Of a stretch of 64,000 nucleotides of DNA, positions 56,795-62,129 are shown piece by piece. The number at the start of each line of letters is the position of its first letter. Positions within the stretch are counted from its first letter, which is position 1. Both the position numbers and the translations under genes were made by a program. This DNA comes from Cladosporium halotolerans (lineage: Eukaryota), in NCBI RefSeq assembly GCF_011745625.1, contig NW_027191489.1, positions 1 through 64,000 of the forward strand, read 5' to 3'. The notes below the pieces were generated by a model. The model searched no databases. It was not told where the DNA came from and saw only the letters and a program-made list of their open reading frames with translations.

Positions 56795-57406
56795 GGTGTG
56801 TTCTGGTGTGGGTTGTGTCCGAAGGGGCGCGTGGATGGTTGTCTAGGTTGTGAAAGGCACGCTCGCACGCTGGAACTATAAGACAGCCATAACAAGTAGG
56901 ACGCTAGGAGGATCGTGACAAAGTTTTGGTAAGTGAAGTTGTGATTGTAGGTGTACGTGGTGAGGAAGACAGAGCCGGCGGATGGCTGCGAGAGAGAGCT
57001 CCTCTTAGCGCTAGCCGCCTCGTCCAAAACCCGATCACCGCGGAGGATTTCCGCGCTAACGTCATGGCCCTGAGGGCAGCATTCAGCATTCAGGGCCTCT
57101 CGCGCTGTCCTTGCCTGCCTTGGCCGTAAGCTTCTATAATAACTCATCATCAATTCAGTGTCACCAAAAATTCACGCGCTCTCCTTGATCGCACGTTTTC
57201 TTCTACCGCGCTTTACATCGAATCGTCAACCCCTTCCAACAATGCTTAACCGTCGAAACTACGAGACCGTGAATCCTTGACTGGCACTTCAGTCTAAGCT
57301 ATCATGTTTATGCCAGGTCTGTAGTGCCACATTCTTGGGCCCATTTATGTGCGAGCACATTGCTTTTGGGCGCTCCTTCGAACCCCCGTGCTACAGTCTA
57401 AAATTT

Positions 57407-59235
57407 CTAGGTCATCCTCCCCAAAGAATCGCAGCACCTTTGAAGACGCTGCACCACGTTTTCTGCGAAGTCTCGCCGCCAGCTCTGATCTACTGCTTCC
57501 AATGGGCTATTCCTCAATGTCCAGGATACCGCCAGTGCATAATTTTCACCAGTGGTACCCTGCATCTTTTCAGCCCACGCTTGGGCTATAACCATCCGGG
57601 TCATCGGGTCTTTCTCTCTGCAGGGGAACTGCTGCCAACGCGGATCTTGGGTGAACCTCTTGCCAAACCCCAGCTCCAAGAGCACAATTCCCAAAGAAAT
57701 GAAGCTGAGATCCATTCGCGGCAACGATGCCGTGGGGTTTGCATCGAAATCGGCCAGGACATACGGATCAGGATGTATGGTTTGGGCATTCGAGGCATCG
57801 ACGGTAGTTGGTAGGAGCACGCTCCCAGAATCCCACATCCAATTGATCCAGGGCGAAGAATGTAGCTGCAGATGCGTGGACGCTAATGCCAGTGCAATAT
57901 GGCAACGTTTCTGCCGGTGCAGGTCCTCTGACCCTAAAGCATCAAGAAGACTTATTCCGGGCGTTGCCGGACTGACTCCCGCTGCGCAATGGACGAGATA
58001 CTGGTCGTTGCCTCTCCGAAGACAGCAAACGCATTCGCTCACGGAGGCGCCCTGGAACAGTTCGCAGAGGTTTGCCGCTGGGTTTGGCTGCGGTAAGTCC
58101 ATGGAAATCGTCTGAGGTGCGGGACGAAGAGGTAAAAATGGCAAGGGTTGGACTGCTTGGGTCACAACAGTTGTCGAGGTACCCTGAAGTCCACTAACAT
58201 CGTTTTAGTTTCACTGGTAAGCAGCAGTGACATGCATTTATCTTGCCCTTGAGTGACACTGGAGTTTGGTTGCGATGTGATCCTGTGTCTCGAGGATGCT
58301 CGTGATCGGTCACTAATAGGCACCAAATTTTGGCTGCTCCCAGAGCCAGGCAAGCTCAGTGTATGCGCTGCATGGGTCGACTCCCGCTGTCCAACTTTGA
58401 CTTGCGTCGCTTGTTCCCCATGGCACAGGTAGAGGCGCATGTTCATGGAGTCTATGACCGTGCGATGGTGTTGTAGTGTCAACTGGGCCTTGCCACGACA
58501 GTTGCAGCTCCAGGCAAATTTCAGAAGCTTGAAGATGCTCTCTCCGTGTTTCCAGAACTCGAGAAGGCTCCTATGCGTTCGTCGGTTCGGAAAGTCCCTG
58601 CGATTTCTTGTGCAATCTAAGAGGTATGCACTACCCTCGAGGAGTTCGCTCAGTCTTCGAATGCACTCGTACACATCATCCAACAGCTCCTCACGGCAAG
58701 AGCTCTGCAGACTGTACTTAAGCTTTTTGCCCTGAAATGCTATCTTCGCCTGGATCATCAGAATCTTCTCTGCTTTGGAAATTGTTTTGGTGCCACGAGA
58801 CGTAAGAACACCTCCATGTTCCAAAAGCGACTGAAATGCAGAGTCGTCCACTTTCGCCAATTTGCAAAGTTTTGTCATCGCATCCGCGAGCTCGGCCATG
58901 ACGTTCAAGTATAGCCGGTATCTGTCTTGCATCCTGTCCGTCAGGGCTTCCTCAACGCACGCCTCCTTCCATCCTTCCCCTCCTGGATTGGCAAGGAGCT
59001 GTGCGTACTGCTGTGAGTCCACGACTCCATCATCTAGCAAGGGAAATAGGAGCATTTGAAGTTGATGCTCGTATCCCATTTTCAACTCCTGGAGGCGGTT
59101 GCAGACTTTGGTATGCTCTCTATTCACGTTGCGAGAGATTTTGATTAGTTTGCTCGTGGTTCGGTAATGCTCCATGGCAGCAATGGCCAGCGGGAAACTT
59201 CCCAGAACTAGACCGGCCACTTCGATGCCGCTCAT
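57407..59235 (-). CDS. DUF7580-like protein (HeLo-like hydrophobic N-terminus, kinase-like helical C-terminus), probably 2 exons
   Basis: MSGIEVAGLVLGSFPLAIAAMEHY, LLANPGGEGWK, WSCNC, RCHIALALASTHLQLHSSPWI, SLGIVLLELGFG, GENYALAVSW. The two ORFs join via a short intron near 58195-58247. Confidence 0.7.
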
Positions 59236-59653
59236 CTTGTTGCCAGTGCGCGCTCGAGGTTCGACGACTCGCGGGTCTCGCTATTGTGAGATGGGAAACC
59301 TTGTGTGAATGAGATGGTGCACATGGATGCCCTCGACAAGCATCAGGCTGCACTTGAGGGGACTTCCCGGTGTGCAGCAATACACGACTCCTCCGTGCAG
59401 GAGGTGGGGCATAGCTACGTGCATTATCGTCTCATCTGCAAGCCTGACGCCCAGTGCTACAAATCTCAGCCTGGTCTTCATCTAAGCGAGCTAAGCTGAC
59501 CTGCCTTGGTCAGCTGCCAGCCCTTCATGAATATGCCAATACAATAATTGATCATGATCTGTTTCTCACGTCCTTGTACTGAGAAGGCGAACTCTTTTAC
59601 CTGCTCATATCTTGCGGTATCTGTTTGGATCACCTCAGAGGCGGTATGATGCG

Positions 59654-62129
59654 ATGTCAGACGCAGAGGTCGGTAAGGAAGAGATCGATATTACTATCAG
59701 CAAGGCTGTGATACGACCGGACGCAGCACGATGCTCAATTTACCAAGCCCTGAAAGATGTCCTGAAAACATTTGATCTCGTGGAAAATGAGCCTGAAATC
59801 GAGCGGTTGACGAAGAATATCGTCATCGACAACATTGCTCGAATCTCGATTTGGGCGGGAGAGATGGGAGCGGGCTATCCGCAAAATCACACTAGGTCCG
59901 CTGACCACAAGTTGAGGTCGCATCCCATGGTAGCAGAGCTCATTTTGGAGCGCTTGTCGAACATTGAGGAAGATAATCAGGCATTACTGGCAATTGCCCG
60001 CGGTGAAAGCCGGGACACAAGCCAGGTGTCCTCGCCTATCGAAGACGAGCTCACTGCACTGGACGAGATCACCGCGCTCGATAGCGTTGGCGGGCTGAAT
60101 ACTGAAGCCGACGTGATTGCTTCTACCGTATCTGACTCTATCTCAAGCCTTTTCAGGCTGACTGCATTGCTCCGGCAATCGATTGAGAGTCAAGGCATGG
60201 TAAAGGCAGCGGCTCGCTCATCATCCTTGCCTGCCACTTCGGCTTATAACTTCGACCTTGTCTTGGAGACATTCCCCAAGCTGGATCATCATCCCGCACT
60301 TCTGGATGCACTCAGCAGAGCAGCAACCCAACGTCAGAATCTCCTCCGAGACGCACAAAGGACTAGATCCAACATCCAGCCATCAGAAGTTGCTGATGAT
60401 GATGACGACGATGCTTCTTCTGATGCTACGTCTGAAAGCTCACTAGGGCTTTTTAACATGAAGCATGTCAGGCTGGAAAGGTTGTCTCTCAAAGAAGCTT
60501 CGAAAGATAAGCTTCCGTTTGAGTGCCCCTACTGTCGGCAAACTGTGGCTTGTAAGCAAAATGTCTCTTGGAGGTAAGTCCGCCACAGTCTCACACTATC
60601 TATTCTCTACAATGTCATTCGCACGTCTTGCGACGGAAAACTTTGTTGACTCTTGAACAAGAAAACATGTCTTCCGTGACTTGATTGCCTATGTCTGCAC
60701 TTTCGCCCCTTGCTCGAGTTCACTCTTTGACAATCGTGAGGACTGGTTCAAACATGAGCTCCAAAGCCATCGCAGAATCTGGCATTGCCTTTCTTGCAAT
60801 GGACTCGAGACCTTCCAATCAGCAGAGTCGCTGAAGGAGCATGTGTTGGCGACGCATTTTTCATCCGCAGACATTGGGTTCAACGTAGATTCCCTGGTGG
60901 ATGCTTGTTCGTGGCCTGTTTCAACTGTCCCAGCAAAAGTCGCCTGTCCGTTCTGTAACGAGTATACACAGACGTCTGAAGATTAGGCCGTAGAGAAATC
61001 GGTCCTTCCGGTGCGTGATGTCAAGAGACACCTTGCTAGTCATATGGAAGATTTGGCTCTGCTGTCAATCACAACATCGGCACAAGACGCTGCGGAAACA
61101 ACACCACAGGTCTCGCACAGTACTGTGCATTGGGAAACATTTGCAGACAATCTACGCCAAACGAAATCATCCACCGGAACTTTCGTATCTGAACAGCTGC
61201 GGGGCGCCTCGGATGAGACAGAAGAGACGATAATATCAGACGTGCTTGCAAGAAGTTCCGCATCCAGAATCAAGGGTAACAAGAGTCTAGCGCCGCCCAT
61301 CATGTTCGTGAGGCATAATCACATCGTAGACCGTGAGCGCAGACTCGATGCGAGCGAAGATTATCAGCCCTCGAAAGCATTTGGGCGGAAAGCGAAAGGA
61401 AGACTTGTTTCAGCGGAAATAAGAGTATCAAAGCAATCGAAAGAGGCCCAACACACGGTAGGGAGTTTGTCAGATTTTGCGATGGAATGCGCAGACCAGG
61501 GGCGGTGGGAAGCGGCCGAATACACCCAAGCCAAAGTTGTGCAGGCATGCCGAGACGTACTCGGCCGAGATCATCCTGACACTCTGAAGAGCAAGGCCAG
61601 GCTGGCAGGCATATACTCATGCCAAGGGCGGTTGTGGAAAGCAGAAGAGCTACAACGTGAAGTCGTATTGAAAGCGAGAGAGTTGATCGGCAAAAATAGT
61701 CTGTTCACCTTGGAGGCCACGAATCACCTGGCAATGGTACTGCGAGAGCTCAGGGGATATCGCGAAGCAGAAAGACTATATCGACGAGCATGTGATGGCT
61801 TTAAGATGACGCTTGGGAAGATGCACGCGCACACGCTCGAGGTACTCAGCGATCTTGCTCTAGTTGTCCTAGTGCAAGAACGGTACGATGAAGCCGAAAC
61901 ACTTATTAAATCGGTGATTGTCGGGAGGGAACAGGTCTTGGGAAGGAACCATACCAAGACAGTGGAAAGCATCCGTGTCTTGGAAGACGTACGAGAAAAG
62001 CGGATCCAGAGCCAACAGCCTGAGGTCACTGGAAAGGGACATATGTTCACGCCTGACATGAGCAACGATCGTCCCGAAAAGTCGGGAGGGGCGTCATCTG
62101 ACCATGAAATTTATCTACCGTGGCATTAG
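59654..62129 (+). pseudogene. AcuF-like N-domain + C2H2 zinc fingers + 42-aa TPR repeats, interrupted by in-frame TAG (60984-60986)
   Basis: RISIWAGEMGA..ADHKLR; PFECPYC..WR|KHVFRDLIAYVCTFAPC (intron 60574-60661); WFKHELQSH; WHCLSC; CPFC..*..RHLASHMEDLAL; about 4 LGxDHPDTL-type TPRs. The same frame continues on both sides of the stop. Confidence 0.65.

What the first reader, a model, noticed from the sequence alone, without database searches (positions are those of the whole stretch)
57407..62129. Head-to-head DUF7580-like and C2H2/TPR genes: candidate NTPase-less sensor-effector (non-self recognition) pair
Seen: two divergent genes about 420 bp apart, in a block with weak codon bias between the core ING and ILV3 genes. 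One begins with MSGIEVAGLVLG, a hydrophobic helix of the type found on HeLo/HeLo-like/SesA-type N-termini, and ends in a kinase-C-lobe-like segment with no evident catalytic motifs. The other joins an AcuF-like helical N-domain and C2H2 fingers to about four 42-aa TPRs of the kind that end fungal NB-ARC NLRs, but I see no P-loop. Known: fungal immune receptors and cell-death effectors are often encoded as adjacent pairs, and a helical death domain plus pseudokinase is the MLKL layout. Inference: an undescribed two-gene immunity or incompatibility module.
Basis: partly seen in the sequence, partly recalled or inferred. Interest (0 to 1): 0.7.

Follow-up and report, generated by a model that had tools for sequence, protein, structure and literature searches.

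The report
Conserved fungal pseudokinase and swappable-sensor pair
Two back-to-back fungal genes, one built like the animal cell-death protein MLKL and one a helical-bundle/zinc-finger protein whose tail domain is swapped from lineage to lineage, stay together across many fungi and are predicted to bind, which points to an unstudied sensor-and-executor system (the sensor copy in this strain carries a stop codon).

Summary
The pair is real and not chance. Gene A (591 aa) is an MLKL-shaped protein: a HeLo-related helical domain plus a dead kinase fold (DUF7580). Gene B is a four-helix bundle, four C2H2-type fingers and TPRs, but an in-frame TAG (codon 415; Gln in two relatives) cuts off the TPRs in this strain. 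In fungal metagenome contigs, 43 of 43 distinct A-type loci with enough upstream DNA carry a B-type gene head-to-head (fingers downstream in 0 of 25). The two genes have congruent trees, and 21 of 40 shared promoters carry the 7-mer AGGCTGA. B's tail is interchangeable: TPR, ankyrin, WD40, HET, phosphatase, RING, ARID and others; a P-loop follows in only 1 of 26, so B is not a decayed NLR. A related intact pair is predicted to bind through B's bundle (ipSAE 0.72, best control 0.36). Best reading: B clamps A and releases it when its bait or sensor tail is hit; cell death is inferred, not shown. I found no paper on the pair; this scan noted it before in other genomes.

The parts
58247..59235 (-). 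Gene A exon 1 (329 codons): hydrophobic first helix, HeLo-related all-helical domain (about residues 1-212) and first part of the kinase N-lobe
58194..58246 (-). Predicted 53-nt GC-AG intron of gene A; not among the RNA joints listed
   Evidence: gives a 591-aa frame; single-exon gene calls of two relatives end at this donor position (P0003, P0004); one search lists no such joint (one joint was not shown)
57407..58193 (-). Gene A exon 2: rest of the pseudokinase (DUF7580), catalytic Asp and DFG absent
59501..59600 (-). 5'UTR intron of gene A (alternative donor at 59569); puts A's first exon within about 55 nt of B's start codon, so the two 5' ends meet or overlap
   Evidence: joints 59498-59599 and 59498-59568 in runs X2/X3; GT/AG ends on the minus strand
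59466..59472 (-). AGGCTGA, a 7-mer enriched between the two start codons across the family
59654..60573 (+). Gene B exon 1: four-helix bundle (about residues 16-179), helical hairpin, acidic linker, first half of finger 1
   Evidence: family profile hit E 7e-10 without being a seed; fold from the related L023 protein
60574..60661 (+). Predicted 88-nt GT-AG intron of gene B
   Evidence: canonical ends and frame; run X4 has indels inside it; not seen as an RNA joint
60662..61060 (+). C2H2-type finger array of gene B
60984..60986 (+). In-frame TAG, codon 415; Gln in relatives P0001 and P0002
   Evidence: contig 13 of run X2 (60774-60994, no differences) reads the same letters, 8 bases from its end
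61074..61454 (+). Hypervariable linker between fingers and TPRs
   Evidence: 35% identical to P0001 against 83% (fingers) and 91% (TPRs); run X4 does not align over most of 61095-61559
61455..62129 (+). About four 42-aa TPRs and tail, downstream of the stop
   Evidence: Pfam TPR_10, 4 stretches, E 1e-26
57162..58750 (+). Spliced antisense RNA over the 3' two-thirds of gene A, with a plus-strand GT-AG intron at 58093-58208; ends approximate
   Evidence: joint 58091-58208 in X2 and X3; GTAAGT donor, CTAAC branch, TAG acceptor, longest ATG frame 155 aa, no Pfam hit in the two long plus-strand frames tested

Best explanation
A two-gene sensor-executor unit for danger or non-self sensing. Gene A is an MLKL-shaped executor: a hydrophobic first helix on a HeLo-related bundle, tied to a catalytically dead kinase fold that acts as a switch. 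Gene B is its dedicated partner: a conserved head (four-helix bundle, hairpin, zinc fingers) fused to an exchangeable tail (repeats or pieces of ordinary cell proteins) that serves as sensor or bait. Both are expressed from one short two-way promoter. B's bundle binds A where helix 2 of the HeLo-related domain meets the pseudokinase C-lobe and most likely holds A off; when the tail is bound, modified or destroyed, A is released, oligomerises and damages the membrane. Shown: anatomy, obligate head-to-head linkage, co-divergence, tail swapping, shared promoter motif. Predicted by a model: the A-B interface. Inferred: direction of control (hold-and-release about 60:40 over activation), membrane damage, immune role. 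This strain's copy is probably a blind sensor: the stop removes the last finger half and the TPRs but keeps the bundle that binds A.
For: Linkage: 33 of 34 distinct loci with >=2.5 kb upstream have the fingers on the opposite strand 1.26-1.71 kb from A's start, 0 of 25 downstream; the first-round profile was seeded only from this genome and one relative; 42 of 43 have the bundle and the one miss has the fingers; this genome's second A-type gene also lies about 2.3 kb from its second finger gene. Co-divergence: 18 of 34 tree splits shared, at most 2 in 1000 label shuffles. Tails: 11 Pfam types in the finger reading frame of 12 loci, more in the next frame. Folds: kinase-like, Z 10-12, MLKL 4btf Z 10.2 (rmsd 5.0, 177 aligned); catalytic motifs replaced; A's N-domain vs HeLo hhalign 72%, 166 columns, score 38.8 vs 24 reversed and 21.6 best shuffle; B's bundle best matches potato Rx-CC, Z 11.8, rmsd 2.5, 102 of 107 residues. 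Binding model on pair L023: 0.72 vs best control 0.36; the mark was reached by 51 of 78 solved and 2 of 108 mismatched pairs (eukaryotes 39 of 65 and 2 of 126); runs share at least 36% of contacts, partner pLDDT at least 65; interface includes B's most conserved motif and leaves A's first helix free. Two-gene sensor-executor clusters are the rule for fungal cell-death systems (PMC12881547, passages).
Against: No functional data. The HeLo link is moderate: no Pfam HeLo hit on gene A, 1 of 27 family members at E 0.13, hhalign 0.6% with first-sequence match states, and A's N-domain was never fold-searched alone. B's bundle Z is in the range that generic helical bundles reach (GCP4 10.5, HIP1R 10.3). 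The complex was folded for a relative, with A cut in two chains and without alignments; 7 of 44 blind neighbours pass this test. A's first-helix hydropathy is borderline for a transmembrane helix (1.6; family median 1.7). The locus is present and syntenic in both related DNA runs laid (X4, X10), so no presence/absence polymorphism was seen. 14 of 34 tails have no Pfam hit. Only A-to-B linkage was surveyed, and only for the MSG[IL]E[VI]AG subfamily (best 80 of 119 hits).
Confidence: 0.5

Rival explanations
1. Same unit, but non-lethal signalling or transcription: B is a zinc-finger regulator (possibly binding AGGCTGA in its own promoter) and A a pseudokinase scaffold or membrane anchor that gates it; the tails place B in different pathways.
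For: Four C2H2-type fingers, weak Foldseek matches to DNA-binding finger arrays (best E 0.34); a conserved promoter 7-mer; several tails are nuclear or RNA domains (ARID, SET_assoc, RRM).
Against: Closely related heads carry unrelated tails (clade L023/L024/L025/L030/L032/L034: DUF6590, DUF7104, TPR, kinase-like, phosphatase), hard to square with one regulatory job; HET and NB-ARC-TPR tails are immune-type; the 7-mer also resembles the yeast Crz1 element GAGGCTG (PMC2873923, passage).
Confidence: 0.2
2. Sensor-activates-executor: A is self-inhibited by its pseudokinase and B's bundle is exposed only after sensing, then binds and switches A on (as NLRs do for HET-S by amyloid, or RIPK3 for MLKL).
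For: Same linkage, folds and interface; this strain tolerates a truncated, eroded B (25 of 40 family-conserved columns kept, against 31-39 in other rows that span the region and 24 in the C46 paralogue) beside an intact-looking A (22 of 26 in its 90%-identical relative, median 23).
Against: Strict one-to-one linkage, a shared promoter and pair-specific interface residues fit stoichiometric restraint better; the truncated B keeps the predicted interface.
Confidence: 0.17
3. A selfish toxin-antidote element (addiction or meiotic drive) in which B is the antidote and the tails are passengers.
For: Tight linkage, co-divergence and duplication as a unit; two pairs in this genome.
Against: Intact, diverse tails kept in frame; no mobile-element features among the long frames scanned; stable position between housekeeping genes in related runs.
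Confidence: 0.1
4. Chance or merely promoter-sharing neighbours with no joint function.
For: Head-to-head pairs can persist through shared promoters (general knowledge).
Against: 43 of 43 linkage at about 30% identity, survival of the link through rearrangement in the C46 paralogue (tandem, with a gene between), and a passing complex model.
Confidence: 0.03

Closest known systems
Animal MLKL (and plant MLKL-like proteins)
   Same: N-terminal helical membrane-targeting-type domain plus a pseudokinase; A's model matches MLKL 4btf at Z 10.2, among many TKL-type kinases.
   Different: N-lobe is split by a ~60-residue disordered insert and lacks recognisable ATP-binding motifs; the partner is not a kinase, so RIPK3-type phosphorylation is not the evident trigger.
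Fungal HeLo/HELL + kinase or pseudokinase fusions (one sentence in PMC12881547, passage read)
   Same: Same layout; this genome has a classic HeLo + DUF7580 gene on another contig.
   Different: A's N-domain is below Pfam HeLo detection; no partner of the B type is described there.
Fungal gasdermin-protease clusters (PMC12881547, passages)
   Same: Two-gene cluster; a constant coupling domain fused to variable sensor domains (TPR, WD40, ANK, NLR) controls a separate executor.
   Different: Coupling here is a four-helix bundle/zinc-finger head predicted to bind, not a protease; the executor is MLKL-shaped, not a gasdermin.
het-S/nwd2 and HELLP/PNT1 amyloid NLR-effector pairs (PMC12881547, passages)
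   Same: Adjacent sensor and HeLo-type executor.
   Different: No NTPase in most partners (1 of 26); A ends in a kinase C-lobe, not a prion-forming tail.
Plant head-to-head NLR pairs with integrated domains (PMC12258605, passages; RGA4/RGA5-type repression recalled)
   Same: Head-to-head, shared promoter, sensor with integrated foreign domains, coiled-coil-like bundle.
   Different: Neither protein is an NLR as a rule; that paper found head-to-head NLR pairs rare in Sordariales (13 of 225 two-gene clusters).
Podospora het-V (het-Va methyltransferase + het-Vb MLKL/HeLo-Tudor; PMC9262711, passages)
   Same: Two linked genes, MLKL/HeLo-type executor without an NLR.
   Different: Different partner and no pseudokinase; restricted distribution.

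Membership tests
Pfam DUF7580 (PF24476) | Score above the curated cut-off | tested here: met
   31.3 bits vs 27 on exon 2; 25 of 27 family members hit
Active protein kinases | Catalytic-loop Asp (HRD) and DFG | tested here: not met
   Aligned to BRI1 and BRAF the loop reads PW-x-x-x-W-x-K-x-D-I with a variable residue at the Asp, and DFG is replaced by x-P-[YF]
Protein kinase fold (pseudokinase) | Two-lobed kinase fold | tested here: met
   Model of orthologue P0005 (34-40% identical to the two exons), pLDDT 83: best Z 12.3 (rmsd 6.6, 202 aligned), C-lobe-only Z 11.4 (rmsd 3.9, 157); all listed rows are kinases
HeLo / HeLo-like superfamily | Pfam HeLo, PigL_N (HeLo-like) or SesA hit | tested here: not met
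   No hit on gene A exon 1 at E 0.1; 1 of 27 members at E 0.13
HeLo / HeLo-like superfamily | Remote homology: hydrophobic helix 1 and collinear helical bundle | tested here: inconclusive
   hhalign 72%, E 3e-5, 166 columns, equal to the HeLo vs HeLo-like control (68.5%), but 0.6% with another setting; Atlas HeLo cluster 0.91, 169 of 256 features; domain not fold-searched alone
MLKL | Activation by RIPK3-type phosphorylation; membrane permeabilisation | not testable with these tools
   No kinase partner at this locus; needs experiments
Fungal NLR | Central NB-ARC or NACHT domain | tested here: not met
   No P-loop in gene B, none by Pfam; P-loop within 3 kb behind the fingers in 1 of 26 relatives and in the C46 paralogue
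Fungal NLR | C-terminal superstructure repeats | tested here: met
   TPR_10 x4, but behind the stop in this strain
zf-C2H2_AcuF (PF26082) | Hit to the family model | tested here: inconclusive
   Model not in the library; nearest Atlas cluster (0.97) has it on 16% of members
NLR coiled-coil / MLKL 4HB bundles | Four-helix bundle of Rx-CC/MLKL type in gene B | tested here: inconclusive
   Rx-CC Z 11.8 (rmsd 2.5, 102 aligned), Sw-5b SD 10.3, MLKL 9.1, NRG1 9.0, HET-S 8.0, but unrelated bundles reach 10.5; no profile match to HeLo types
Amyloid-coupled NLR-effector pairs | Matching amyloid motifs at sensor N-terminus and effector C-terminus | not tested
   No motif scan run; both ends are folded domains in the models
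het/vic incompatibility loci | Alleles under balancing selection that trigger incompatibility | tested here: inconclusive
   Two linker types among relatives; no population data, no crosses
Stop codons rescued by A-to-I editing or conserved readthrough | Trp in orthologues or a conserved stop; edited RNA | tested here: not met
   Gln in 2 of 2 relatives; the one spliced-type contig covering it shows no change, near its end

The most novel reading that the evidence does not exclude
Filamentous ascomycetes have a large, NLR-independent class of immune receptors: a four-helix-bundle/zinc-finger head that captures pieces of host proteins as integrated decoys and directly clamps a cognate MLKL-shaped executor encoded head-to-head, the pair being co-induced through a shared, Crz1-like promoter element. 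The list of captured tails would then name the cell proteins that fungal antagonists attack.
Probability: 0.4. Interest if true: 0.92.

Novelty: new variant of a known kind. Interest (0 to 1): 0.78.

Why it matters
What fungal immune sensors detect is an open question (said so in PMC12881547, passage), and head-to-head sensor/helper pairs with integrated domains were reported as rare among fungal NLRs (PMC12258605). Here is a very large family (10,146 clusters at 50% identity hit the A profile at E<=0.001, 1,755 at 1e-30) in at least four fungal classes (10 of the hits looked up) that shows that logic outside NLRs, with a concrete interface and simple tests. It would also give functions to two orphan families and a third way, besides phosphorylation and amyloid templating, to control an MLKL-type protein.

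Tried and rejected
RNA editing or readthrough of the TAG: rejected, relatives have Gln. An intron removing the TAG: every frame-keeping candidate listed would delete finger cysteines or histidines or has a poor donor, and relatives align straight through. Gene B as an NLR that lost its NTPase: rejected as the family default. Presence/absence of the block: suspected from the 0.39-0.40 word shares but runs X4 and X10 hold both genes. Word-index search with exon 2 among long proteins found nothing. BLASTP of B exon 1 against the C46 paralogue was not significant; only the profile links them. B's N-domain against HeLo, HeLo-like, SesA and A's N-domain: no match. No HeLo/4HB row appears in the fold search of full-length A, where kinases fill the list; this is no evidence either way. 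No fused B head in the 160 proteins held, including the 1164-aa P0112. Low or missing contig cover behind the stop in X2/X3 cannot be read as decay. Locus L094 was dropped from the survey (it matched only A's C-terminal part). Paper searches without a description of the pair: DUF7580 alone, 0 papers; (listings). A. fumigatus het genes do not include it (PMC11138114, passages); PMC4986451, PMC9815663, PMC10197012, PMC13449251 (passages) do not mention it; 11 supplements of PMC9815663 gave no DUF7580 or pseudokinase hit, two files were not searched and only 2 of 236 C2H2 rows were seen. PMC7023320 was irrelevant. The library lacks most subscription papers.
Full report
Observation. The window is the start of contig C296 of a 27.9-Mb fungal genome. 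Gene A starts at 59235 on the minus strand and gene B at 59654 on the plus strand, 418 bp apart. With one predicted GC-AG intron (58246-58194) A gives 591 aa; single-exon gene calls from two relatives stop at exactly this donor position, but the joint is not among those listed from RNA-like contigs (one joint not shown). B has one predicted intron (60574-60661) and 795 codons, of which codon 415 is TAG. It lies inside the last zinc finger, ahead of the four TPRs. Two relatives, 75% and 94% identical, have Gln there, and a contig of run X2 (same sample as the best holder; judged RNA from its splice joints, kind not on record) reads the same letters, though only 8 bases from its end. So it is a nonsense allele, not editing. 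Codon bias is weak, but no weaker than in the neighbouring ING-type gene.

Gene A. Exon 2 passes the Pfam DUF7580 cut-off. A profile of nine sequences finds 10,146 clusters at 50% identity; the 10 looked up come from lichen-forming, dothideomycete, sordariomycete and geoglossomycete fungi (names; class assignment recalled). AlphaFold2 on the closest full-length orthologue (P0005, 136 sequences, pLDDT 83) gives an all-helical domain (1-213), then a kinase fold whose N-lobe is split by a disordered insert; all rows listed in both fold searches are kinases or pseudokinases, best Z 12.3, MLKL Z 10.2. The catalytic Asp and DFG are not kept. The N-domain has no Pfam HeLo hit, but its profile aligns collinearly with six HeLo domains of this genome over 166 columns (72%, score 38.8; reversed 24, best of 20 shuffles 21.6), as well as HeLo aligns with HeLo-like (68.5%); with first-sequence match states the same test failed. 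The Atlas puts a HeLo cluster at 0.91. I rate this as probable remote homology.

The pair recurs. This genome has two A-type genes among four DUF7580 hits and two hits for B's fingers; they lie together both times. In the second (contig C46) the genes are in tandem with a small gene between, and the partner continues into a P-loop before the contig ends. A scan of metagenome contigs for the A start motif gave 119 relatives, of which the best 80 were kept. A finger profile seeded only from this genome and P0001 made 53 hits in them, all on the opposite strand upstream of A. After merging loci over 90% identical and dropping L094, 33 of 34 with at least 2.5 kb upstream have the fingers 1.26-1.71 kb from A's start (window: 1.43 kb), against 0 of 25 downstream flanks; at 50% merging 15 of 15 and 0 of 10. 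A profile of B's N-domain, seeded from these loci and so partly circular, finds 42 of 43 with at least 850 bp upstream; the miss (L026) has the fingers, and the finger miss (L073) has the N-domain. It also hits gene B (E 7e-10) and the C46 paralogue (4e-8), which were not seeds. Start codons lie a median 344 bp apart. Across 37 pairs at about 30% identity, distances correlate (rho 0.52; 0 of 2000 permutations) and 18 of 34 tree splits are shared, at most 2 by chance. Linked genes co-diverge anyway, so this shows lasting linkage, not contact.

Gene B's family. A model of the L023 partner (58 rows, pLDDT 83, pTM 0.71) shows a four-helix bundle, a helical hairpin, a disordered linker and four fingers. 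The bundle's best match is potato Rx-CC (Z 11.8, rmsd 2.5, 102 aligned), with Sw-5b, MLKL, NRG1, MLA13 and HET-S lower, but generic bundles reach 10.5. Behind the fingers the proteins differ. Of 34 loci whose tails were scanned, 20 have a Pfam hit; in 12 it lies in the finger reading frame and falls into 11 types (TPR, ankyrin twice, WD40, HET, tyrosine phosphatase, ARID, CBM21, SET_assoc, ULD_2, RING_4, DUF7104); in the next same-strand frame, presumed exons, lie ankyrin, DUF6590, SH3 and HET, NB-ARC-TPR, RRM, C2H2 and a weak kinase hit. One tight clade of six carries five different tails. A P-loop follows in 1 of 26. So the TPRs here are one tail among many, and several tails look like pieces of housekeeping proteins, as integrated decoys do (inference).

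Binding and regulation. ESMFold2 on pair L023 (A cut into 1-288 and 353-590, B 1-472; alignments not used) scored 0.72 in three runs; unrelated partners 0.03 and 0.00, and 0.36 when A's C-lobe was kept. The mark was reached by 51 of 78 solved and 2 of 108 mismatched pairs (39 of 65 and 2 of 126 for eukaryotes), and by 7 of 44 blind neighbours; runs share at least 36% of contacts, partner pLDDT at least 65. B's bundle contacts helix 2 of A's N-domain and the C-lobe; A's first helix is not in the confident interface. B's side includes its most conserved motif (Arg 43 of 45, Trp 41 of 45, Asn 41 of 46 rows), A's helix-2 side varies between pairs. This supports binding and does not show it, and it is not the window's own pair. 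Between the start codons, AGGCTGA occurs in 21 of 40 regions (2.6 expected; z 11.4, best null 5.5), 2.0 per kb against 0.18 in the rest of the loci and 4 of 81 other upstream regions; the loci are related, so the count is not of independent events. It resembles the yeast Crz1 element GAGGCTG (PMC2873923, passage); self-binding by B is the alternative.

This copy. Runs X4 and X10 hold both genes at the same place. B's linker comes in two types (35% identical to P0001 between 83% and 91% flanks). B here keeps 25 of 40 family-conserved columns, against 31-39 in the other rows that span the region and 24 in the C46 paralogue, while A looks normal. RNA-like contigs of two samples show minus-strand 5'UTR introns that bring A's first exon to within about 55 nt of B's start, and a plus-strand GT-AG intron at 58093-58208, which means a spliced antisense RNA over A. 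A decaying sensor beside a damped executor is a consistent picture, but it is inference.

Mechanism and comparison. I favour hold-and-release of an MLKL-shaped executor by a bait-bearing partner (0.5), over non-lethal regulation (0.2), sensor-driven activation (0.17), a selfish toxin-antidote (0.1) and chance (0.03). It works like fungal two-gene sensor-executor clusters and plant head-to-head pairs with integrated domains, but it is not an NLR pair, not an amyloid pair by anatomy, and has no kinase or protease trigger. HELL-pseudokinase fusions are mentioned in one sentence of a review (PMC12881547; passages and sections 7 and 18 read). I found no paper on the pair (supplements of PMC9815663 partly searched). 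Earlier notes of this scan report the same pairing in two other genomes and kinase-partnered cousins; I met them after my own survey and do not count them as evidence.

Noticed in passing
window 57162-58750 (+), intron 58093-58208: Spliced antisense RNA over gene A in two samples, with canonical splice signals and no long frame; may start from the ING-type gene's promoter.
   Followed up: partly
G000:C46:604842-611102 (L006, L007): Second A-B pair, in tandem, with a small oxidoreductase-like gene between (label from recall, no Pfam hit); its B has fingers followed by a P-loop and runs off the contig.
   Followed up: partly
L008:5551-9111 and L009:288-1693 (G000:C246): A HeLo + DUF7580/kinase-like gene lies tail-to-tail with a kinase-ankyrin gene, and a HeLo-like (PigL_N) gene is about 2 kb further: a second kind of candidate cell-death cluster.
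   Followed up: no
L010:41-4902 (G000:C18): A SesA-domain gene next to a 1278-aa weak HeLo + DUF7580 protein with a long C-terminal extension of serine-protease-like look (from reading, no Pfam hit).
   Followed up: no
L008:1579-2232: Orphan frame with HCEK and PCxDC motifs typical of deaminase-like proteins (motif recalled), about 3 kb from the HeLo-pseudokinase gene.
   Followed up: no
window 58723: Run X3 shows a one-base insertion in gene A exon 1 in one contig, 26 bases from a chimeric end; allele or artefact.
   Followed up: no
intergenic regions of the pair family: A second enriched word, ACCCCGC (12 of 40, 1.6 expected), resembles the CreA/Mig1 site (recalled); absent from the window's own intergenic region.
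   Followed up: no
window 58549-59498: Run X10 differs at 53 of 950 bases over A's N-terminal part, against 43 of 3046 over the ING-type gene: faster divergence of the HeLo-related domain.
   Followed up: no
L030:8364-8571: Another family member has a frameshift inside the finger array ahead of its TPRs; broken sensors may be common.
   Followed up: no
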